From a virus: a DNA stretch of 64,000 bases. The translations under genes were made by a program, and so were the position numbers. Within the stretch, counting starts at the first letter, position 1. Every line of letters starts with the position of its first letter. The stretch is taken from positions 1 through 64,000 of the IMG/VR virus record IMGVR_UViG_3300043570_001741, one strand, 5' to 3'. Positions 27,893 to 47,360 of this stretch are shown piece after piece. The notes below the pieces were generated by a model. That model was not told the DNA's origin and did no database searches. It worked only from the letters and a program-made list of their open reading frames with translations.

Positions 27893-28464
27893 GTGAAATA
27901 CTAAGAATTGATACTAGTGCTGGTGTAACAAAAGCAACAGACACTATTGAAGACCTGCCTTTATATAATGATAATCATCCTATGTTAAAGGCTGTTATTC
28001 CAGAATATAGAATACAGTTGCCTAACCCATTGATGACCAAATTGGTTAAAAGGTTGAAACAAACAAAACTAAAATATGGCGGCATTGGCCTTTCTGCAAA
28101 CCAATGTGGTGTTATGGAAAGAGTATTCGTTATTGGGTATGAAGAAACTAATATGGTTTGTATCAACCCTAAAATCATTGATGCTTCGGCAGACTTGATT
28201 AAAGACAATGAAGGTTGCCTCTCTTTCCCTGGTTTATATGTTAAGATATCAAGGCCTAGTTGGTTGGAAGTAGAGTACGTTACTGAAAATGGCGAACTAA
28301 TACGACAAAGAATTGAAGGTCTGACTGCAAGATGTTTTGCACATGAATTGGATCATATGAATGGTACTAAGTTTACCGAACATGTTGGTCCAGTTGCACT
28401 CAGACTGGCTAAAGATAAACAAGAAAAACGCATTAAGAAACATGTGCGAAATAGAAAGAAATAA
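27889..28464 (+). CDS. def: Peptide deformylase
   Basis: GIGLSANQ, EGCLS, HELDH motifs. Confidence 0.93.
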   Translation: MSEILRIDTSAGVTKATDTIEDLPLYNDNHPMLKAVIPEYRIQLPNPLMTKLVKRLKQTKLKYGGIGLSANQCGVMERVFVIGYEETNMVCINPKIIDASADLIKDNEGCLSFPGLYVKISRPSWLEVEYVTENGELIRQRIEGLTARCFAHELDHMNGTKFTEHVGPVALRLAKDKQEKRIKKHVRNRKK

Positions 28465-29741
28465 TGGCATACGGATTTGACCCAAAAGATGATGTAGATA
28501 CGCAATGGACAAAATGGCATGCAGACTTTAAAGAGCCTGCTGTTTTGACTGATGAGACTTTACGTGAGAAAATCATTAGTGACCTTACATTTGTATCAAA
28601 GATGGATGTCAAAGAATATACATTATACCAAAAATGGTGTGAAGTGCAAGACAGATATCCTACAATGACTGTTAATGATTTGTGGGAAGGTGAGAAGGTT
28701 GTATTACAGAGTGATGTTCAACGTGATGCTATTGATGACATTAAGAACAACTTTTGGATTCCAGAAACACTTGAAGATTATCTGAAACTTGAACCTGAAA
28801 TGATTTACACAAACAAAGGTGAGAACTTGCCTGAATTGTGGAATTGTATTCGCACCTTTTCTTCTACAATGAAGAACAACTCTAACATTGGCCGCAATCT
28901 AAACTTCATCATTCGTGATAAGGTAACAAAGAAGTATCTTGGTGTTATTTGTATTTCATCAGACTTTCTTGATTTGACACCAAGAGATAATCACATTGGT
29001 TGGCCAAGAGAACTTAAAACACAAGGCGGTATGATTAACCATACTGCAATTGGTTCTACAATTGTTCCATTGCAGCCACTTGGTTTTAATTATGTTGGTG
29101 GTAAATTACTGGCACTTCTATGTCTTGCCGATCCTGTACAAGAATTGTGGAAGAAATTATATGGCGACACATTAGTTTCTGTAACTACAACTTCATTGTA
29201 TGGTAGAACTAAGGCTGATGGACTTTCTCAGTATGATGGTCTAGACCACTGGCAGAAAATGGGATTTACGGCAGGTTCGGTATCATTTGAACCAGAAAAA
29301 GAAACACGATATGATATTCGTGATTGGTTGAAAACAAAACATACACGTAAATACTTTGAATGGTATGTTGCAAAGAAGCCAAGCGGACAACCACATAAGC
29401 GTGACCATAAGAATCGTTCACTTCAGTTTGTTTATTCTAAATTGAATATTCCTAAAGAGTTGATTCGTACAGACCATGCTCGAGGCATTTATTGGTCGCC
29501 ACTATACGATAACTCTATTGATTACCTTAATAAGAAAATTGGTGATGATGACTTGGTTAAATCATTTGATACAAGCGTTGAAGCCTTAGTTGATATTTGG
29601 AGAACTAAACATGCCAAACCACGTATCAAACAATTGGCCAAAAAAGGCCGTAACAATAACGAAACCTTGTTCTATGACGACCTCTGTTATCTAACATGGG
29701 AACAGGCAAAAGAGAAGTATCTTTGCCAAGTTGGTCGTTAA
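28464..29741 (+). CDS. DUF4338/DruA-like protein (paralog 1)
   Basis: GRNL.FI, IVP.QP.GFNY.GGKLLA, TTTSLYG, SQYD motifs recalled for DUF4338; paralogous to 46245-47360. Confidence 0.7.
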   Translation: MAYGFDPKDDVDTQWTKWHADFKEPAVLTDETLREKIISDLTFVSKMDVKEYTLYQKWCEVQDRYPTMTVNDLWEGEKVVLQSDVQRDAIDDIKNNFWIPETLEDYLKLEPEMIYTNKGENLPELWNCIRTFSSTMKNNSNIGRNLNFIIRDKVTKKYLGVICISSDFLDLTPRDNHIGWPRELKTQGGMINHTAIGSTIVPLQPLGFNYVGGKLLALLCLADPVQELWKKLYGDTLVSVTTTSLYGRTKADGLSQYDGLDHWQKMGFTAGSVSFEPEKETRYDIRDWLKTKHTRKYFEWYVAKKPSGQPHKRDHKNRSLQFVYSKLNIPKELIRTDHARGIYWSPLYDNSIDYLNKKIGDDDLVKSFDTSVEALVDIWRTKHAKPRIKQLAKKGRNNNETLFYDDLCYLTWEQAKEKYLCQVGR

Positions 29742-29746
29742 AACGC

Positions 29747-29775
29747 TTGACAAACAGCCTATATAATTATATAAT
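29747..29775 (+). promoter_or_regulatory. Consensus sigma70 promoter for the tRNA-like RNA
   Basis: TTGACA (29747-52), 17-nt spacer, TATAAT (29770-75). Confidence 0.85.
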
Positions 29776-29785
29776 AGACACAAAT

Positions 29786-29848
29786 GCGGAGAGTCCGAGA
29801 CAGCCCGTCCCAACGGGCAGACAGGTTTAACTCCTGTTATCCGCTCCA
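29786..29848 (+). ncRNA. Non-canonical, truncated tRNA-Gly-like RNA (63 nt)
   Basis: Acceptor GCGGAGA/TATCCGC + T + CCA; T-arm ACAGG-TTTAACT-CCTGT; anticodon stem GCCCG/CGGGC with loop TCCCAA; D-arm reduced to GTC-CGA-GAC. Confidence 0.75.
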
Positions 29849-29875
29849 TTCCTAAGTCCCATGCGACTTCCCAAC

Positions 29876-29926
29876 TGTTGTTTTTACGCAACAGGCTCTT
29901 GACAAATCCTCCAGTTTTGATATAAT
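29876..29926 (+). promoter_or_regulatory. Sigma70 promoter with upstream TGTTG-N8-CAACA inverted repeat (CobT-like gene)
   Basis: TGTTG-TTTTTACG-CAACA at 29876-93, TTGACA 29899-904, 16-nt spacer, TGn-TATAAT 29921-26. Confidence 0.7.
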
Positions 29927-29953
29927 GGTTAGATAAATTCAAAAAGGTTTTGC

Positions 29954-32257
29954 ATGACAGCATTTACAGTAGAACAAAAATCTCAGCTTGCCAAGTTGAT
30001 GGCAACTGAGAACCTTACCATTCAACATTCAAAAATCCATACTGCCAAATTTGACCCAACTAAACGGATTCTTTATCTTCCTATGTGGAAAGATATGTCA
30101 AGTTTCATGTATGATTTGCTTGGCGGCCATGAGGTCGGTCATGCTCTTTATACTCCTGCGGATGGTTGGCATGATGTTGTTACCGATAAAAACAGAGGTA
30201 AGAATTATAAAGCTTTCCTTAATGTGATTGAAGATGCTCGCATTGAGAAAAAAGTTATTCGTAAATATCCAGGCCTTAAATCATCATTCCGTAAAGCATA
30301 TGCTGAATTAAGTGACCGTGATTTCTTTGGCATCCAACATCGTGACATTAACCATATGTCATTCATTGACCGATTGAATATCTATACCAAGAGCCAATAC
30401 AGCGAAAACATTAGATTTTCTGTTGAAGAAATGCAAATGATTGGTGAAGTTCAAATGCTTGAAACATGGAATGATGTGCTTCGGGTAACTGAAAAGATTT
30501 ATGGTTATTGTAAGAATGAACAATTTGAATTATCAATTGGTGATGATTTTGAATATGACGCTGAAGGCAATCCCTTAGATGAAGATGATACCAATTCCGA
30601 TTATGATTATGATACTGAATTGGATAATGGTGAATCTGGCGACAGCGAAGATTCGGATGAAACCTCAGATGAAACTACCGATGAAGAAACCGATGGTAAC
30701 TCTGATGGTGAAGGTGACGATTCCGATTCTGATGATGACGGCAACAATGTGAATCGTGATAAAGATTCGCAAATGTCCAATTTCGATTCAGAAGATTTTG
30801 ATCCAGAATGTGTAACTGACGATAACTACCGCAAAAACGAAGTGACATTGCTTGATGAAAAATGCAAGCCTTATGTGTACGCTAATATGCCTACACCTAT
30901 TTTGTCTAAAATTATCACACCTGCAAAACGGGTTCAAGAGTTGTTGACATTAGATTTTGCAAATCAGGTTAAAGATGGTTATATAACAGATGAAAGAATC
31001 AATGGTTTTGTACAAGAATTTCGTAATAGAAATGAACGTTACATTGCATTGCTTGCCAAAGAGTTTGAAATGCGTAAGGCTGCCAAATCATTCAGTAAGG
31101 CAAAGCAATCGGATACTGGTGATGTTGATGTTAACAAACTGGCTTCATACCGTTTTGATGACAATATCTTCCGTAAAATCATGCAAGTGCCAAAAGGCAA
31201 ATCACATGGTTTGATTCTGTTGCTTGATTATTCTGGTTCTATGTCAGATAACATGGCAGGTTCTATTGAACAAATCTTGGTTCTTTCCATGTTCTGCCGT
31301 AAAGTAAACATTCCATTCCATGTTTATGCATTCAGTAATGATTCTTCCACATGGTCAATTGATAATCCCAAGACTACTGCTGTACCACTTAGCGTTCTTG
31401 GAAATCCTATGGAAGTTCGTCAATGTTTTATGTACCAATCTGGTGAATTAAAATTTGAAGCTATTTCATTGCGTGAATATTTAAATTCTAAAATGACAAA
31501 TGCTGAATTTACCAAGGCCTTGCGTAACATGGTATTGTTGAAAAAGTCCTATGAAGGCGGTCGTTATGCTCGTGTTGTGCAAAGACCACATTCTGAAAGA
31601 CTTTCAAATACTCCTTTGACAGAAGCTTTGGTTGCAACACAAGCAATTATGAAAAACTTTAAACGTAGCAACAATTTGGATATTACAAACTTGGTAATTA
31701 TCCATGACGGTGATGCTGACTCCACTAATTGTGTGGCAAATGATGAAGGTGGTTACAATTGGTTTCATCCATTGTATGAGAATGTTATCCTTCAAGATAA
31801 CAAATTAAAATACCAGAAGCTAGTTAAGTCTAACAACTTAAGCAATGAAATGTTTGTTTCGGTTGCTGAGTGGTTTACCGCTACAACCAACTCTAAGATT
31901 TTTGGTTTCTTTATTGTTCCTCCTCATCGTTCAAAGGGCATCATTAGACATTACTACCATAATGAAAATAGATTACCTCTATACACTAAGCGTTCTGATG
32001 CTAACATAGATGCTGAGTTGATTAAACAACTGAAGCGTAAATTGGATACTCAGAAGTTTTTACATTCATTCAATCCTGGTTATGATTCGTTCTTCCTAAT
32101 TTCTGGTGGAAATGATTTAATGACCAATGATGGTGAAATTGAGGTTGATGGTAAACTTACAGCATCTAAGCTCAAGAATGCTTTTATGAAGTTCAATAAA
32201 GGCAAACAGATTAACCGAGTGTTAGTCTCCAAGTTCATTCAAGGCATTGCTGCCTGA
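29954..32257 (+). CDS. CobT-like protein with HExxH metallopeptidase-like, acidic linker and vWA domains
   Basis: HEVGHAL, NVIEDARIE, Asp/Glu-rich linker, LLDYSGSM MIDAS motif. Confidence 0.8.
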   Translation: MTAFTVEQKSQLAKLMATENLTIQHSKIHTAKFDPTKRILYLPMWKDMSSFMYDLLGGHEVGHALYTPADGWHDVVTDKNRGKNYKAFLNVIEDARIEKKVIRKYPGLKSSFRKAYAELSDRDFFGIQHRDINHMSFIDRLNIYTKSQYSENIRFSVEEMQMIGEVQMLETWNDVLRVTEKIYGYCKNEQFELSIGDDFEYDAEGNPLDEDDTNSDYDYDTELDNGESGDSEDSDETSDETTDEETDGNSDGEGDDSDSDDDGNNVNRDKDSQMSNFDSEDFDPECVTDDNYRKNEVTLLDEKCKPYVYANMPTPILSKIITPAKRVQELLTLDFANQVKDGYITDERINGFVQEFRNRNERYIALLAKEFEMRKAAKSFSKAKQSDTGDVDVNKLASYRFDDNIFRKIMQVPKGKSHGLILLLDYSGSMSDNMAGSIEQILVLSMFCRKVNIPFHVYAFSNDSSTWSIDNPKTTAVPLSVLGNPMEVRQCFMYQSGELKFEAISLREYLNSKMTNAEFTKALRNMVLLKKSYEGGRYARVVQRPHSERLSNTPLTEALVATQAIMKNFKRSNNLDITNLVIIHDGDADSTNCVANDEGGYNWFHPLYENVILQDNKLKYQKLVKSNNLSNEMFVSVAEWFTATTNSKIFGFFIVPPHRSKGIIRHYYHNENRLPLYTKRSDANIDAELIKQLKRKLDTQKFLHSFNPGYDSFFLISGGNDLMTNDGEIEVDGKLTASKLKNAFMKFNKGKQINRVLVSKFIQGIAA

Positions 32258-44894: not shown

Positions 44895-46248
44895 GGACTT
44901 TACCCGTAAAGTTTTGCCATTCATCAAGTCGGATTACTTTGCCGACAATACAGAGAAGGTAGTATTCAAAGAAATCTTTGAGTTTGTAAACAAATACAAA
45001 AATCTACCGACTCATGAATCTCTCATCATTAATTTCACCGAGAGTAAAAAACTAACTGAACCTGAAGTAAGACAATCAATTGAACTTCTTAAAGAATTAC
45101 ATTCAAGTAAAGAAGAAAAGGTTGAGAGTAAATGGTTAATTGAGCAAACTGAGAAGTTCTGCCAAGATAAAGCCATCTACAATGCCATCATGGAATCAGT
45201 ATCAATCCTTGATGACAAACACGGAGATAAACCTAAGGGTGAGATTCCAAAACTACTGAGTGATGCTCTTGGTGTTTCTTTTGACCAACACATTGGCCAT
45301 GATTACATGGCAGATTATGATTCTCGTTTTGATTTCTATCACAAGGTAGAATCTCGTATCAAGTTTGACCTTGATATCTTCAATAAGATTACAAAAGGCG
45401 GACTGCCGACCAAGACCTTGAACATTGCACTTGCAGGTACTGGTGTTGGTAAATCATTGTTCATGTGTCACGTTGCCGCTGGTTGCTTGAATCAAGGTCA
45501 TAATGTTTTGTACATTACAATGGAAATGGCCGAAGAACGTATTGCAGAACGTATCGATGCTAATTTGCTAAATATTGATTTGAATGAACTTCACACAATC
45601 AGTAAAGAAGACTATGAACGTAAATTCAAGGTGTTACAAAACAAGGCTCATGGTAAATTGATTATCAAAGAATATCCAACTGCTAGTGCTTCATCACTAC
45701 ATTTCAGAGCATTGTTAAGTGAATTGCATCTGAAGAAGAACTTTGTTCCACATATTATCTTTATTGATTATTTGAACATTTGTGCATCTTCACGTATCAA
45801 GGCAGGTGGTTCTGTTAACTCTTATACTTACATCAAGTCTATCGCTGAAGAACTGCGTGGTTTGGCTGTTGAACACAATGTGCCAATTGTTTCTGCAACA
45901 CAAACAACTCGTAGTGGTTTCAGCAATTCGGATCCAGGCCTTGAAGATACTTCAGAATCATTTGGTTTGCCTGCAACTGCCGACTTTATGTTTGCATTGG
46001 TGACTAATGAAGAATTGCAACAATTAAACCAAATCTTGGTGAAACAATTGAAGAATCGATACTCTGACCCTAACAACTTCAAACGATTCGTTGTTGGTGT
46101 TGATAGAGCAAAGATGCGGCTGTATGATGCAGAAGATTCAGCACAGGCAGATATTGTTGATGCAGGTCAAGTTGAAGATAAACCTTTGAATACATTTGGA
46201 AACCGTGAGAAGAAATTCAGTAAGAATTTTGGTGGACTTAAAGTATGA
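44848..46248 (+). CDS. gp41: DnaB-like replicative helicase
   Basis: AGTGVGKS, TMEMAE, FIDYL, SATQTTR, QLKNRY motifs; start set at ATG 44848. Confidence 0.96.
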   Translation: MNRLEQTILKNLIYNEDFTRKVLPFIKSDYFADNTEKVVFKEIFEFVNKYKNLPTHESLIINFTESKKLTEPEVRQSIELLKELHSSKEEKVESKWLIEQTEKFCQDKAIYNAIMESVSILDDKHGDKPKGEIPKLLSDALGVSFDQHIGHDYMADYDSRFDFYHKVESRIKFDLDIFNKITKGGLPTKTLNIALAGTGVGKSLFMCHVAAGCLNQGHNVLYITMEMAEERIAERIDANLLNIDLNELHTISKEDYERKFKVLQNKAHGKLIIKEYPTASASSLHFRALLSELHLKKNFVPHIIFIDYLNICASSRIKAGGSVNSYTYIKSIAEELRGLAVEHNVPIVSATQTTRSGFSNSDPGLEDTSESFGLPATADFMFALVTNEELQQLNQILVKQLKNRYSDPNNFKRFVVGVDRAKMRLYDAEDSAQADIVDAGQVEDKPLNTFGNREKKFSKNFGGLKV

Positions 46249-47360
46249 CATTAACTAAAGAACAAGCCGTACATTGTGCAAATGTATTCTCCAACTACTT
46301 TGATAAGTTTGGTCGTATTGATGAATACATGAGAGAACAGAAACTAAATTCAATGGCCGAAAGACCATTTACTTTGCCTGGCATGGGACCAGAAGAAGAT
46401 TTGTTTTCTGATTTCACTATGTCACCTGCTGATATGGAATTTGAAATCATGGAGTTACCACAAGATAGGTGGGACATTTATCTCAATATGATTTCAAGTC
46501 ACTCAAACATGACCAGTATTCCTGGTCGGTGTTTAAGATTGGCAATTTGGGAAAAGAAATCACAGAAGTGGGTTGGTTTTATTCGTCTTGGTTCTCCTGT
46601 TATCAATTGTAAACCACGCAACGAAATGCTTGGCCAAGTATTCACGCAACATGAAGGTGGTGCTCAATTGTTCAATCAATGTGCCGCTATGGGTTTTGTG
46701 ATTGTACCTGCACAACCATTTGGTTTCAATTATCTCGGTGGTAAATTACTTGCAGCCATTTGTACAACACATGAAGTACGTAGAATGTTGGATGAAAAGT
46801 ATAAGATGACCACCTGCTTGTTTGAAACAACCAGTTTGTATGGTTCTTCAAAGGCAGTATCACAGTATGATGGTATGAAACCTCTGATTCGTTTCAAAGG
46901 TTTAACTGATAGTGATTTCTTGCCGATGTTACATGGTAAAACTTATAGTGACCTCAAAGAATACATTGAGAATATCATTGGTGAACCACTTGCACCAGAA
47001 GGTGCTTCTTCACGCAAGTTGAAGATTTCTAATGCAATGGTGTCTATGATTAAGATTGGCCTCAAAGGCACACCAGAGGCTACTAAGTTTGCACAGACGA
47101 TTGAGAATGCCAAGAATCTGAATGAACAGAAACGTTACTTCATTTCAGACTATGGTTTTAAGAACATGGTTGATTTTGTAAATGGAAAGACTGACAAGTT
47201 AATTCCAGGTGAGAACTATGAGAAACATAATCTGGCCAATATTACAGAGTGGTGGCGTAAGAAGGCTATCAATCGATTTGAGACCTTGAAGACAGAAGGT
47301 CGTATTCGTACAGAACAAGAAGTCTGGACTGGTGATAAAGTGCTTGACATAATTCGGTAA
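46245..47360 (+). CDS. DUF4338/DruA-like protein (paralog 2)
   Basis: IPGR, GFIRLGSP, IVP.QPFGFNYLGGKLLA, ETTSLYG, SQYDG motifs; translationally coupled to gp41. Confidence 0.7.
   Translation: MTLTKEQAVHCANVFSNYFDKFGRIDEYMREQKLNSMAERPFTLPGMGPEEDLFSDFTMSPADMEFEIMELPQDRWDIYLNMISSHSNMTSIPGRCLRLAIWEKKSQKWVGFIRLGSPVINCKPRNEMLGQVFTQHEGGAQLFNQCAAMGFVIVPAQPFGFNYLGGKLLAAICTTHEVRRMLDEKYKMTTCLFETTSLYGSSKAVSQYDGMKPLIRFKGLTDSDFLPMLHGKTYSDLKEYIENIIGEPLAPEGASSRKLKISNAMVSMIKIGLKGTPEATKFAQTIENAKNLNEQKRYFISDYGFKNMVDFVNGKTDKLIPGENYEKHNLANITEWWRKKAINRFETLKTEGRIRTEQEVWTGDKVLDIIR

What the first reader, a model, noticed from the sequence alone, without database searches (positions are those of the whole stretch)
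28464..29848. DUF4338/Mom-like gene paired with a dedicated non-canonical tRNA-Gly-like RNA: candidate tRNA-dependent DNA hypermodification system
Seen in sequence: 5 nt after the DUF4338-like stop codon is a perfect TTGACA-17-TATAAT promoter, followed by a 63-nt RNA (29786-29848). It keeps the Gly identity elements (G1-C72, C2-G71, G3-C70, U73, encoded CCA) and a perfect T-stem. It has a D-arm reduced to a 3-bp mini-hairpin, a TTT instead of TTC T-loop, a 2-nt variable region and a 6-nt anticodon loop (TCCCAA). Established: non-proteinogenic tRNA-Gly species serve as glycyl donors for GNAT-fold Fem transferases, and phage Mu Mom is a GNAT-fold enzyme that makes N6-carbamoylmethyl-adenine (from memory, reported to use Gly-tRNA-Gly). 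Inference: the RNA is chargeable by host GlyRS but ribosome-incompetent, and it supplies glycine to the DUF4338 protein, which may modify phage DNA against restriction.
Basis: partly seen in the sequence, partly recalled or inferred. Interest (0 to 1): 0.92.

Follow-up and report, generated by a model that had tools for sequence, protein, structure and literature searches.

The report
Phage mini tRNA-Gly mimic beside GNAT
A group of uncultured T4-like phages carries a conserved 63-nt shrunken tRNA-Gly look-alike that cannot decode and sits right after a DruA-family acyltransferase gene, so it may be a private glycine donor for a Mom-like DNA modification, but that role is untested.

Summary
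Window 29786-29848 encodes a 63-nt mini-cloverleaf behind a perfect sigma-70 promoter that starts 5 nt after the stop codon of a DruA/DUF4338 gene.

- **The RNA is real and new.** ARAGORN and Rfam do not call it. It recurs in about 100 distinct related viral contigs. In 27 distinct sequences, 16 of 21 base pairs show compensatory changes.
- **Glycine identity is kept.** G1-C72, C2-G71, G3-C70, G4-C69, U73 and CCA never vary among them, and a CC always sits in a 4-6-nt, non-decoding "anticodon" loop.
- **Linkage to DruA is tight.** A search for the RNA motif alone found the DruA gene directly upstream in 78 of 78 informative contigs.
- **The protein is a GNAT.** The AlphaFold model has pLDDT 94.5. 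Its best structural neighbour is phage Mu Mom (Z 9.9, 186 residues), which a 2026 paper shows transfers glycine from Gly-tRNAGly to DNA adenine.
- **DNA context.** Some homologs are fused to ParB-N or UDG domains.

Weaknesses:
- There is no sequence homology to Mom.
- The Z margin over ordinary GNATs is under 1.
- The RNA-DruA adjacency arose once; a sister clade of 47 orthologs lacks the RNA.
- Charging, donor role and DNA modification are all untested.

I found no cultured-phage record carrying the RNA and no paper describing it.

The parts
28464..29741 (+). DruA/DUF4338-family GNAT gene (425 aa), copy 1
   Evidence: Pfam PF14236, E 2.5e-17. PADLOC DruA1, E 3.7e-17. AF2 model pLDDT 94.5, pTM 0.92. 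GNAT core at about residues 105-369. Best structural match Mu Mom 8bv8, Z 9.5-9.9.
29747..29775 (+). Dedicated sigma-70 promoter of the RNA (TTGACA-17-TATAAT)
   Evidence: 12/12 match. A promoter scoring 10/12 or better, with its -10 box ending 9-12 nt before G1, is present in 39 of 67 distinct related loci, against 0.4% of random positions.
29786..29848 (+). 63-nt non-decoding tRNA-Gly-like RNA. Acceptor stem 29786-29792 with 29838-29844; D mini-hairpin 29793-29801; CC-loop arm 29803-29818; T arm 29821-29837; U73-CCA 29845-29848.
   Evidence: Cloverleaf is the MFE fold, z -3.76. Covariation shown. Model R1 scores 91 bits, the only copy in the genome. Not called by ARAGORN or Rfam.
29875..29894 (+). 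Hairpin (CUGUUGU-loop-GCAACAG) after the RNA; possible 3' boundary of the transcript or an operator of the next promoter
   Evidence: Predicted in the fold of 29776-29960. A similar TGTTG...CAACA hairpin follows the RNA in most related loci. No U tract follows it, so it is not a canonical terminator.
46245..47360 (+). Second DruA-like GNAT paralog (371 aa), with no RNA beside it
   Evidence: Pfam PF14236, E 1.9e-09. 37% identity to copy 1 over the GNAT core. It follows a DnaB/gp41-like helicase gene. No second R1 hit in the genome.

Best explanation
The RNA is a phage-encoded, non-proteinogenic tRNA-Gly derivative that serves as a private glycyl carrier for the adjacent DruA-family GNAT.

Proposed steps:
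1. A strong early promoter makes a short precursor. RNase P and 3' trimming would release a 63-nt molecule ending in the encoded UCCA.
2. The host glycyl-tRNA synthetase charges it through the acceptor-end identity set (G1-C72, C2-G71, G3-C70, U73), perhaps helped by the CC in the loop.
3. It lacks the D-loop/T-loop elbow nucleotides and a 7-nt anticodon loop, so it stays out of EF-Tu and the ribosome.
4. The GNAT takes the glycyl group from its 3' end and transfers it to an acceptor. The most likely acceptor is an exocyclic amine of a DNA base, as phage Mu Mom does. This would protect phage DNA from host nucleases without draining translational Gly-tRNA.

Shown here: the RNA's existence, structure, conservation, promoter, invariant identity elements and non-decoding loop; its linkage to the gene; the GNAT fold.

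Inferred: processing, charging, exclusion from translation, the donor role, and DNA as acceptor.
For: RNA under selection:
- 91.9% of cells are paired and 11 of 21 pairs have compensatory changes in 30 type-A sequences.
- Across all types, 93.5% of cells are paired and 16 of 21 pairs have compensatory changes. Acceptor pairs 1-4 never vary, while pair 5 shows five pair types.

Glycine identity and loss of decoding:
- Of 55 distinct cloverleaf RNAs, 53 start GCGG and end CCGCUCCA; the other 2 have GCGA and UCGCUCCA.
- The middle loop carries CC in all (one exception looks like a misfold), and loop length is 4, 5 or 6 nt in 54 of 55.
- G18/G19 and U55/C56 are absent. The staphylococcal non-proteinogenic tRNAGly lack the same nucleotides and bind EF-Tu weakly (PMC4574755; PMC7826273).

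Linkage to the gene:
- Nearly every one of the 80 DruA-selected loci with enough downstream DNA carries the RNA.
- A scan for the RNA motif alone found DruA directly upstream in 78 of 78 informative loci, including loci where an insert of about 520 bp separates them.
- Types A, B and C and tandem pairs replace one another at the same spot.
- Marine relatives carry odd tRNA-Gly genes 4-5 kb from the gene. Examples are HTVC008M (anticodon ACC, non-canonical T loop, its only tRNA) and L232/L222 (6-nt anticodon loops).

Protein:
- It has a GNAT fold, and Mom is the top match in two searches, with 172-186 aligned residues against about 150 for other GNATs.
- Homologs are fused to or neighbour ParB-N and UDG domains. 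A DndF fusion is reported in PMC10853773.

Precedent:
- Mom transfers Gly from Gly-tRNAGly to N6-adenine of dsDNA.
- Mom accepts all three tRNAGly isoacceptors but not Gly-tRNAAla, and probably reads the acceptor end.
- The authors note possible competition with translation (PMC13219725).
Against: - No sequence-level relation to Mom: the Pfam Mom model does not hit, and hhalign probability is 1% or less against both Mu Mom and a 28-sequence Mom profile.
- Mom's Z-score exceeds acetyl-CoA GNATs by less than 1, and Foldseek gave only weak generic GNAT hits.
- The family keeps a Q-x-x-G motif at the beta4-alpha3 junction, so acyl-CoA use is not excluded (my reading).
- The RNA-DruA adjacency has a single origin: one clade of 104 against a sister clade of 47 without it, needing only 2 changes. 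Synteny alone could therefore maintain it.
- A complete 170.5-kb genome of the sister clade has no such RNA. Neither does Pelagibacter phage Mosig.
- Cyanophage and ParB- or UDG-linked homologs also lack it.
- The phage already has a canonical tRNA-Gly(UCC).
- It is unknown whether GlyRS reads CC in a tetraloop.
- There are no expression, charging or DNA-modification data.
Confidence: 0.5

Rival explanations
1. The RNA is a glycyl carrier, but the acceptor is not DNA. The DruA-like GNAT, or another phage enzyme, would add glycine to a protein N-terminus, a peptide, a lipid or a small molecule, as L/F-transferase, Fem, MprF or PacB do.
For: The evidence that the RNA is a non-decoding glycine acceptor is the same. 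Most known aminoacyl-tRNA-dependent GNATs act on peptides, proteins or lipids (PMC13219725 discussion). A peptide deformylase gene, which processes N-termini, lies directly upstream in the window, in Mosig, and in 38 of 60 informative loci.
Against: Fusions and neighbourhoods of DruA homologs point to DNA: ParB-N, UDG and DndF. The closest structure is the DNA-modifying Mom, not FemA, which scored Z 8.0. The link to deformylase may be plain synteny.
Confidence: 0.15
2. The RNA is a decoy or sponge. It would be an abundant early tRNA-Gly mimic that absorbs a host factor aimed at tRNA-Gly or Gly-tRNAGly, such as GNAT toxins of the AtaT/TacT type or tRNA nucleases. Its position next to DruA would be only inherited gene order.
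For: The RNA has a strong early promoter. The acceptor end is conserved while the body changes quickly: types A, B and C and tandem copies. The adjacency has a single evolutionary origin. GNAT toxins specific for Gly-tRNAGly are cited in PMC13219725.
Against: This does not explain why the RNA stays next to the GNAT gene through an insertion of about 520 bp and changes in flanking genes, with 78 of 78 linkage. No tRNA-Gly-directed defence system is known for these unknown hosts. A nuclease decoy would be expected to keep a native anticodon loop, which is the part that has been lost.
Confidence: 0.15
3. The RNA is a cis-acting tRNA-like processing or stability element, or a relic tRNA kept for RNase P or 3'-end processing of neighbouring transcripts, with no role as an aminoacyl carrier.
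For: It lies between two genes and is followed by a conserved hairpin. In compact loci only a -10 box is visible, so read-through from the DruA gene is possible.
Against: Most loci have a dedicated consensus promoter. The invariant G1-G4/C69-C72, U73 and encoded CCA, together with a conserved CC loop, are unnecessary for a processing signal. Changes are compensatory, not decay.
Confidence: 0.06

Closest known systems
Phage Mu Mom (Pfam PF25680), a Gly-tRNAGly-dependent GNAT that makes N6-carbamoylmethyl-adenine in dsDNA (Silva et al. 2026, PMC13219725)
   Same: Both are phage-encoded GNAT-fold enzymes. Mom is the best structural neighbour of the window protein (Z 9.5-9.9, 172-186 residues aligned). 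Both have extra helices late in the GNAT core, at residues 279-334 in the model, and Mom's helix-turn-helix-like insert is described. A glycine-specific tRNA-type molecule is implicated in both.
   Different: There is no detectable sequence homology. Mom uses host tRNAGly isoacceptors and is expressed late. Here a private, non-decoding mini-tRNA sits under an early-type promoter. Whether the catalytic residues R111 and S124 have equivalents was not established. No activity is known for the window protein.
Non-proteinogenic tRNAGly isoacceptors of Staphylococcus, glycyl donors for FemX/A/B (PMC7826273, PMC4574755)
   Same: Both are extra tRNA-Gly copies that keep GlyRS identity, lack G18/G19 and U55/C56, and are meant to escape EF-Tu so that a transferase can use the glycine outside translation.
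   Different: The staphylococcal species are full-length tRNAs with a normal 7-nt UCC anticodon loop, and tRNA finders detect them. The phage RNA is 63-70 nt, has a 3-bp D hairpin and a 4-6-nt loop, and is invisible to ARAGORN and Rfam. It is virus-encoded and its partner enzyme is different.
DruA (DUF4338, PF14236) of type I Druantia anti-phage systems
   Same: The window protein matches the Pfam and PADLOC DruA models above threshold. An Aravind-lab paper calls DUF4338 a GNAT domain (PMC10853773).
   Different: It is encoded by a phage and no DruB-E genes are next to it. Its neighbours are a deformylase gene and CobT/CobS-like genes. The function of DruA itself is unknown, so membership gives no mechanism.
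Canonical phage tRNA genes, for example this phage's own tRNA-Gly(UCC) in its 23-tRNA cluster
   Same: Both share the acceptor end GCGG...CCGCUCCA and an encoded CCA, so the RNA probably descends from a phage tRNA-Gly.
   Different: The RNA has no decoding loop, no elbow nucleotides and a minimal D arm. It sits alone, 57 kb from the tRNA cluster, under its own promoter.

Membership tests
Canonical tRNA (Rfam RF00005 / ARAGORN definition) | Recognised by tRNA covariance model or ARAGORN | tested here: not met
   ARAGORN finds no tRNA in the window. Rfam gives no tRNA hit even at E up to 10. Variant types in 8-10 related loci are also not called.
Canonical tRNA (Rfam RF00005 / ARAGORN definition) | 7-nt anticodon loop with U33 and a 3-nt anticodon | tested here: not met
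   The loop is UCCCAA, or CCCA closed by a covarying pair. Of 55 distinct relatives, 54 have loops of 4-6 nt.
Canonical tRNA (Rfam RF00005 / ARAGORN definition) | D loop with G18 G19 and T loop with U54-U55-C56 (elbow) | tested here: not met
   The D arm is the 9-nt hairpin GUCCGAGAC and the T loop is UUUAACU.
Canonical tRNA (Rfam RF00005 / ARAGORN definition) | 7-bp acceptor stem, 5-bp T stem with a 7-nt loop, discriminator base plus CCA | tested here: met
   Pair 6:67 is a G-A mismatch in most type-A copies but is paired in some relatives.
Bacterial tRNA-Gly identity set for GlyRS (G1-C72, C2-G71, G3-C70, U73, C35, C36; established knowledge recalled from memory) | G1-C72, C2-G71, G3-C70 and U73 | tested here: met
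   These are invariant in 27 distinct RNAs of all types, while pairs 5-7 vary. 53 of 55 have GCGG and CCGCUCCA ends.
Bacterial tRNA-Gly identity set for GlyRS (G1-C72, C2-G71, G3-C70, U73, C35, C36; established knowledge recalled from memory) | C35 C36 presented in an anticodon loop | tested here: inconclusive
   CC or CCC is always in the loop, but in a 4-6-nt loop on a 6-9-bp stem. Whether GlyRS reads it there is unknown.
Bacterial tRNA-Gly identity set for GlyRS (G1-C72, C2-G71, G3-C70, U73, C35, C36; established knowledge recalled from memory) | Actual glycylation by GlyRS | not testable with these tools
   This needs an aminoacylation assay.
Non-proteinogenic tRNAGly (Staphylococcus Fem donors) | Loss of G18/G19 and U55/C56 together with weak EF-Tu binding | tested here: inconclusive
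   The nucleotide losses are met. EF-Tu affinity cannot be tested here.
Non-proteinogenic tRNAGly (Staphylococcus Fem donors) | Full-length tRNA with a UCC anticodon in a 7-nt loop | tested here: not met
   The RNA is 63 nt with a 4-6-nt loop.
Mom family (Pfam PF25680) | Match to the Mom profile or sequence homology to Mu Mom | tested here: not met
   The Pfam scan at E up to 10 gives only DruA, while Mu Mom hits PF25680 at 2.4e-75. hhalign probability is 1.1% and 0.1%.
Mom family (Pfam PF25680) | GNAT fold with an extra helical insert, closest in structure to Mom | tested here: inconclusive
   Mom ranks first (Z 9.5 and 9.9; 172 and 186 residues aligned), but other GNATs score 9.0-9.2.
Mom family (Pfam PF25680) | Catalytic R111 and S124 equivalents; Gly-tRNAGly-dependent modification of dsDNA | not tested
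   No residue-level superposition was available, and the activity needs an experiment.
DruA / DUF4338 (PF14236) | Match to the family model above the curated cut-off | tested here: met
   63.4 bits against a cut-off of 27. PADLOC DruA1, E 3.7e-17.
DruA / DUF4338 (PF14236) | Part of a Druantia type I operon (DruB-DruE beside it) | tested here: not met
   The neighbours are SbcC/D-like genes, a deformylase gene, a CobT-like gene and an AAA_5 CobS-like gene. The context is a phage genome.
GNAT superfamily | GNAT fold | tested here: met
   The ranked structural matches are almost all GNAT or GNAT-like acyltransferases, covering residues 105-369. 26 representatives score Z 8 or more.

The most novel reading that the evidence does not exclude
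DruA-family GNATs as a whole are aminoacyl-tRNA-dependent nucleic-acid modifying enzymes, a second and sequence-unrelated lineage beside Mom. In type I Druantia, DruA would mark self DNA, playing the role that the methylase DruM plays in type II. Phages would have captured the enzyme and, in one lineage, evolved a private, ribosome-blind mini tRNA-Gly to feed it. That RNA would be the first virus-encoded non-proteinogenic tRNA and a new RNA family invisible to tRNA finders.
Probability: 0.3. Interest if true: 0.92.

Novelty: new variant of a known kind. Interest (0 to 1): 0.8.

Why it matters
**If the reading is right**
- It would be the first dedicated, non-decoding aminoacyl carrier RNA encoded by a virus.
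- It would be a second enzyme family for tRNA-dependent DNA hypermodification.
- It would give the first concrete, testable hypothesis for DruA, whose role in type I Druantia defence is unknown.

**Even without the enzyme link**
- The RNA is a well-supported new family of miniaturised tRNA mimics, seen in about 100 distinct viral contigs, that standard tRNA and Rfam annotation miss.
- It shows a graded series: a near-normal tRNA-Gly with a 6-nt anticodon loop, then 67-70-nt forms, then the 63-nt form. This documents how a tRNA can be stripped down to its synthetase-recognition end.
- It would also be a compact natural scaffold for studying the minimal requirements of GlyRS, RNase P and EF-Tu discrimination.

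Tried and rejected
- **Near-identical DNA in cultured phages:** no match for the 2.6-kb region or for the RNA alone.
- **Single-protein locus searches** with distant homologs P0008 and P0026 found nothing in IMG/VR.
- **Contigs of P0008, P0014 and P0026** were too short or had no DNA, so they were uninformative.
- **Foldseek against PDB** gave only weak generic GNAT hits, none at E 0.001 or better.
- **hhalign of the DruA-like profile** against Mu Mom and against a Mom alignment gave no signal.
- **Sequence search of the PDB** gave only a marginal Ebony hit.
- **N-terminal 106 residues folded alone** gave pLDDT 62.6 and pTM 0.26, so no fold search was made and no claim about a winged-helix domain is offered.
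- **Independent RNA-DruA associations outside the clade** were not found in cyanophages S-SSM7 and S-SCSM2R, a marine single-cell virus, or ParB- and UDG-linked homologs. S-SSM7 has only a normal tRNA-Gly 3.2 kb away.
- **R1 hits in three large genomes of the RNA-less clade** were ordinary tRNA-Cys genes.
- **A weak RF00005 hit in Mosig** lies inside coding sequence.
- **My first test of the downstream gene** was flawed, because the longest HSP starts about 900 nt into the gene. Only its upstream counts are used.
- **The detailed claim that A49-U65 and A51-U63 weaken EF-Tu binding** could not be confirmed in the papers read, so it is not used as evidence.
Full report
**Setting.** The window is the first 64 kb of a 157,713-bp, about 95% complete viral contig. 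It is a T4-like myophage. The nearest cultured relatives of the focal protein are Pelagibacter phages Mosig and HTVC008M (Kyanoviridae), at 56-59% identity. The genes around the finding are:
- SbcD/SbcC-like recombination nuclease genes,
- a peptide deformylase gene,
- the DruA-like gene,
- the RNA,
- a 767-aa gene annotated 'peptidase' in relatives (CobT-like),
- an AAA_5 CobS-like ATPase gene.

The phage has an ordinary cluster of 23 tRNAs at 86.6-90.3 kb of the contig. The cluster includes a canonical tRNA-Gly(UCC).

**The observation.**
- The stop codon of the 425-aa ORF is at 29739-29741.
- A 12/12 TTGACA-17-TATAAT promoter lies at 29747-29775.
- The 63-nt RNA is at 29786-29848.

Its minimum-free-energy and centroid fold is a cloverleaf (-25.8 kcal/mol, z -3.76). 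It has a 7-bp acceptor stem with one G-A mismatch, a 3-bp D mini-hairpin, a 6-bp stem closing a CCCA loop, a 2-nt connector, a 5-bp T stem with loop UUUAACU, and then U73-CCA. ARAGORN and Rfam, even at E up to 10, do not see it.

**Is the RNA real?** Yes.
- A protein-based search of IMG/VR returned 80 loci whose DruA-like protein is 72-93% identical. Nearly every locus with enough downstream DNA carries the RNA 24-66 nt after the stop codon. In five loci it lies about 550 nt after the stop, beyond an inserted stretch.
- For thirty distinct 63-nt versions aligned without gaps, 91.9% of cells are paired. Eleven of 21 pairs have changes on both sides. No shuffle of 500 reached the observed value on four of five measures, and sliding the partners gave about 40% pairing.
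- The pair closing the loop switches between U-A and C-G. The 'six-base loop' is therefore really a tetraloop.
- A covariance model (R1) finds a single copy in the phage genome, at 91 bits.

**A family, not one RNA.** The same position holds other versions in some relatives.
- One 67-70-nt form has T loop UGCGAAU or UGCAAAU and a GUCCA loop. Another has loops CACCC or AUCCC.
- Longer-armed type-A forms and tandem pairs also occur.
- All fold as reduced cloverleaves. None is called by ARAGORN or by Rfam at gathering score.
- Across 27 distinct sequences of all types aligned to the model, 93.5% of cells pair and 16 of 21 pairs show compensatory change. This alignment is fitted to the structure, so it leans towards it.
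- Acceptor pairs 1-4 (G-C, C-G, G-C, G-C) never vary, whereas pair 5 shows five pair types.
- Of 55 distinct sequences whose MFE is a cloverleaf, 53 begin GCGG and end CCGCUCCA; two have GCGA and UCGCUCCA.
- The middle loop carries CC in all (one exception looks like a misfold). Its length is 4 nt (37), 5 nt (14), 6 nt (3) or 7 nt (1).

My searches required those ends. However, within the RNA-bearing clade only two loci lacked a match, and both simply have no RNA there. The invariance is therefore not an artefact of how the sequences were found.

The unvarying part is exactly the acceptor-end identity set of bacterial tRNA-Gly (G1-C72, C2-G71, G3-C70, U73), which I state from established knowledge recalled from memory. 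The parts needed for decoding are gone: the 7-nt anticodon loop and the elbow nucleotides G18/G19 and U55/C56. Staphylococcal non-proteinogenic tRNAGly lack the same elbow nucleotides and bind EF-Tu weakly (PMC4574755, PMC7826273).

**Own promoter.** In 39 of 67 distinct loci a promoter matching at least 10 of 12 positions ends 9-12 nt before G1. Only 0.4% of random positions in the same loci do so. Compact loci keep a -10 box only.

**Linkage to the GNAT gene.** I scanned IMG/VR for the RNA motif alone, without reference to the protein. This gave 80 listed loci. All 78 with upstream DNA have the DruA-like gene directly upstream, at protein identities down to 60%. The RNA was never seen without the gene.

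The reverse does not hold.
- A second, more diverse locus set and a tree of 151 distinct orthologs show the RNA-bearing genes as one clade of 104: 98 with RNA, 2 without, 4 uninformative.
- A sister clade of 47 has no adjacent RNA. Presence or absence needs only two changes on the tree, so the adjacency arose once.
- Inside the clade the RNA type changes at least a dozen times.
- In the sister clade, a complete 170.5-kb genome has no such RNA. There the gene is followed by a small winged-helix gene.
- Pelagibacter phage Mosig has none either.
- Several marine members do carry peculiar tRNA-Gly genes 4-5 kb away. HTVC008M's only tRNA has anticodon ACC, T loop AGCGUUA and no GG in the D loop. 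L232 and L222 have near-normal tRNA-Gly bodies with 6-nt anticodon loops; ARAGORN reports a two-base anticodon 'cc' for L232. L223 has T loop UGCAAGU.

This gives a graded series from a disabled but full-size tRNA-Gly to the 63-nt form. More distant homologs show no such RNA: cyanophage proteins between gp44 and gp62, and ParB- or UDG-linked proteins.

**The protein.**
- Pfam and PADLOC place it in DruA/DUF4338, which an Aravind-lab paper calls a GNAT domain (PMC10853773).
- With 60 homologs, AlphaFold2 gives pLDDT 94.5 and pTM 0.92.
- Foldseek finds only weak GNAT matches.
- VIA-align against 48,161 representative chains ranks phage Mu Mom (8bv8_B) first: Z 9.5, rmsd 4.1, 172 residues. The second look ranks 8bv8_A first: Z 9.9, rmsd 4.3, 186 of 222 residues.
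- Ordinary acetyl-CoA GNATs follow at Z 9.0-9.2 with about 147 residues aligned. The longer aligned span fits a shared helical insert late in the fold, but I could not make a residue-level superposition.
- By sequence there is no relation to Mom.
- Domain fusions of homologs point to DNA: ParB N-terminal domain (three representatives), a UDG-superfamily domain, and a separate ParB-N gene overlapping the start of another homolog.

**Literature.** Silva et al. (Nat Commun 2026, PMC13219725) show the following.
- Mom transfers glycine from Gly-tRNAGly to N6 of adenine in dsDNA, and a rearrangement follows.
- All three E. coli tRNAGly isoacceptors work, but Gly-tRNAAla does not.
- Recognition is probably at the acceptor end.
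- The authors suggest late expression may limit competition with translation.

I found no paper linking DruA or DUF4338 to tRNA, and none describing a phage tRNA-like RNA of this kind.

**Most likely mechanism (confidence about 0.5).** The RNA is a private, ribosome-blind glycyl carrier. It would be transcribed early, trimmed to G1 and CCA, and charged by the host GlyRS through its acceptor end. It would be ignored by EF-Tu and the ribosome, and used by the adjacent GNAT as glycyl donor. The acceptor is most probably a DNA base.
- Shown: structure, selection, promoter, identity elements, loss of decoding features, linkage, GNAT fold.
- Inferred: every biochemical step.

The asymmetry fits an optional helper for an enzyme that can otherwise use ordinary tRNA-Gly, as Mom does: the RNA is never seen without the gene, but the gene occurs often without the RNA. 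It is equally what inherited gene order would give. That is the main reason confidence is not higher.

**Rivals.**
- The glycine goes to a non-DNA acceptor (0.15). The conserved deformylase neighbour is a faint hint towards protein N-termini.
- The RNA is a decoy for host factors aimed at tRNA-Gly (0.15).
- The RNA is a cis processing element or relic (0.06). The invariant identity set, the encoded CCA and the dedicated promoter make this unlikely.

**Novelty.** The components have precedents: non-proteinogenic tRNAGly for Fem enzymes, and tRNA-dependent DNA modification by Mom. A virus-encoded, miniaturised, non-decoding tRNA-Gly tied to a DruA-family GNAT has not been described, as far as the searched literature, Rfam and cultured phage records show. 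I class it as a new variant of a known kind.

**Prior notes.** An earlier first-reader note on the same coordinates exists.

Noticed in passing
L087:1501-1574 (Pelagibacter phage HTVC008M, record 91140-91213): The only tRNA of HTVC008M is an odd tRNA-Gly. It has anticodon ACC, T loop AGCGUUA, no GG in the D loop and an encoded CCA. It lies 4 kb downstream of that phage's DUF4338 gene and is not among the features annotated in this stretch of the record. It may be non-proteinogenic too.
   Followed up: partly
L232:12545-12619; L222 about 4.6 kb after its DruA gene; L223:3408-3482: Marine viral contigs carry near-full-size tRNA-Gly genes with 6-nt anticodon loops (UUCCAU, UUCCCA) or an altered T loop, 4-5 kb from the DruA-like gene. 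They look like intermediates between a normal tRNA-Gly and the 63-nt form.
   Followed up: partly
L043, L054, L081, L083, L084, L100, L105, L124, L125, L135, L157, L172 (between the DruA stop codon and the RNA): An insert of about 520-740 bp separates the gene and the RNA in a dozen loci, yet the RNA is kept. It may be a small mobile gene on the opposite strand. Its content was not examined.
   Followed up: no
Similar hairpins follow the RNA in most related loci. It could be a transcript end or an operator.
   Followed up: partly
window 46245-47360: This is a second DruA-like GNAT paralog, sitting after a gp41/DnaB-like helicase gene. Cyanophage DruA-like proteins of about the same size (about 380 aa) sit between gp44 and gp62 (S-SSM7 'putative cytoplasmic protein'). 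The one in S-SCSM2R is annotated 'methylcarbamoylase mom', although the window's DruA-like protein does not match the Mom family.
   Followed up: partly
L237:8346-9817; L001:5304-5696: In the clade without the RNA, the DruA gene is followed by a small winged-helix gene (HTH_39). About 1.2 kb further on is a dATP/dGTP diphosphohydrolase N-terminal domain gene. Mosig has a MazG gene directly after its DUF4338 gene. These are possible links to nucleotide-pool or DNA-modification functions.
   Followed up: no
window 29747, 29899, 32283, 33541 (+ strand): Four perfect 12/12 sigma-70 consensus promoters occur within 4 kb. This points to very strong host-RNA-polymerase-driven early transcription of this block.
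   Followed up: no
L289:2208-3989, L292:906-3796, L291:1283-3205: DruA-like GNATs are fused to a ParB-N domain, next to a resolvase gene on a marine contig. Another follows a separate ParB-N gene near an integrase gene. Another is fused to a UDG-superfamily domain. These contexts are mobile-element and DNA-related.
   Followed up: partly
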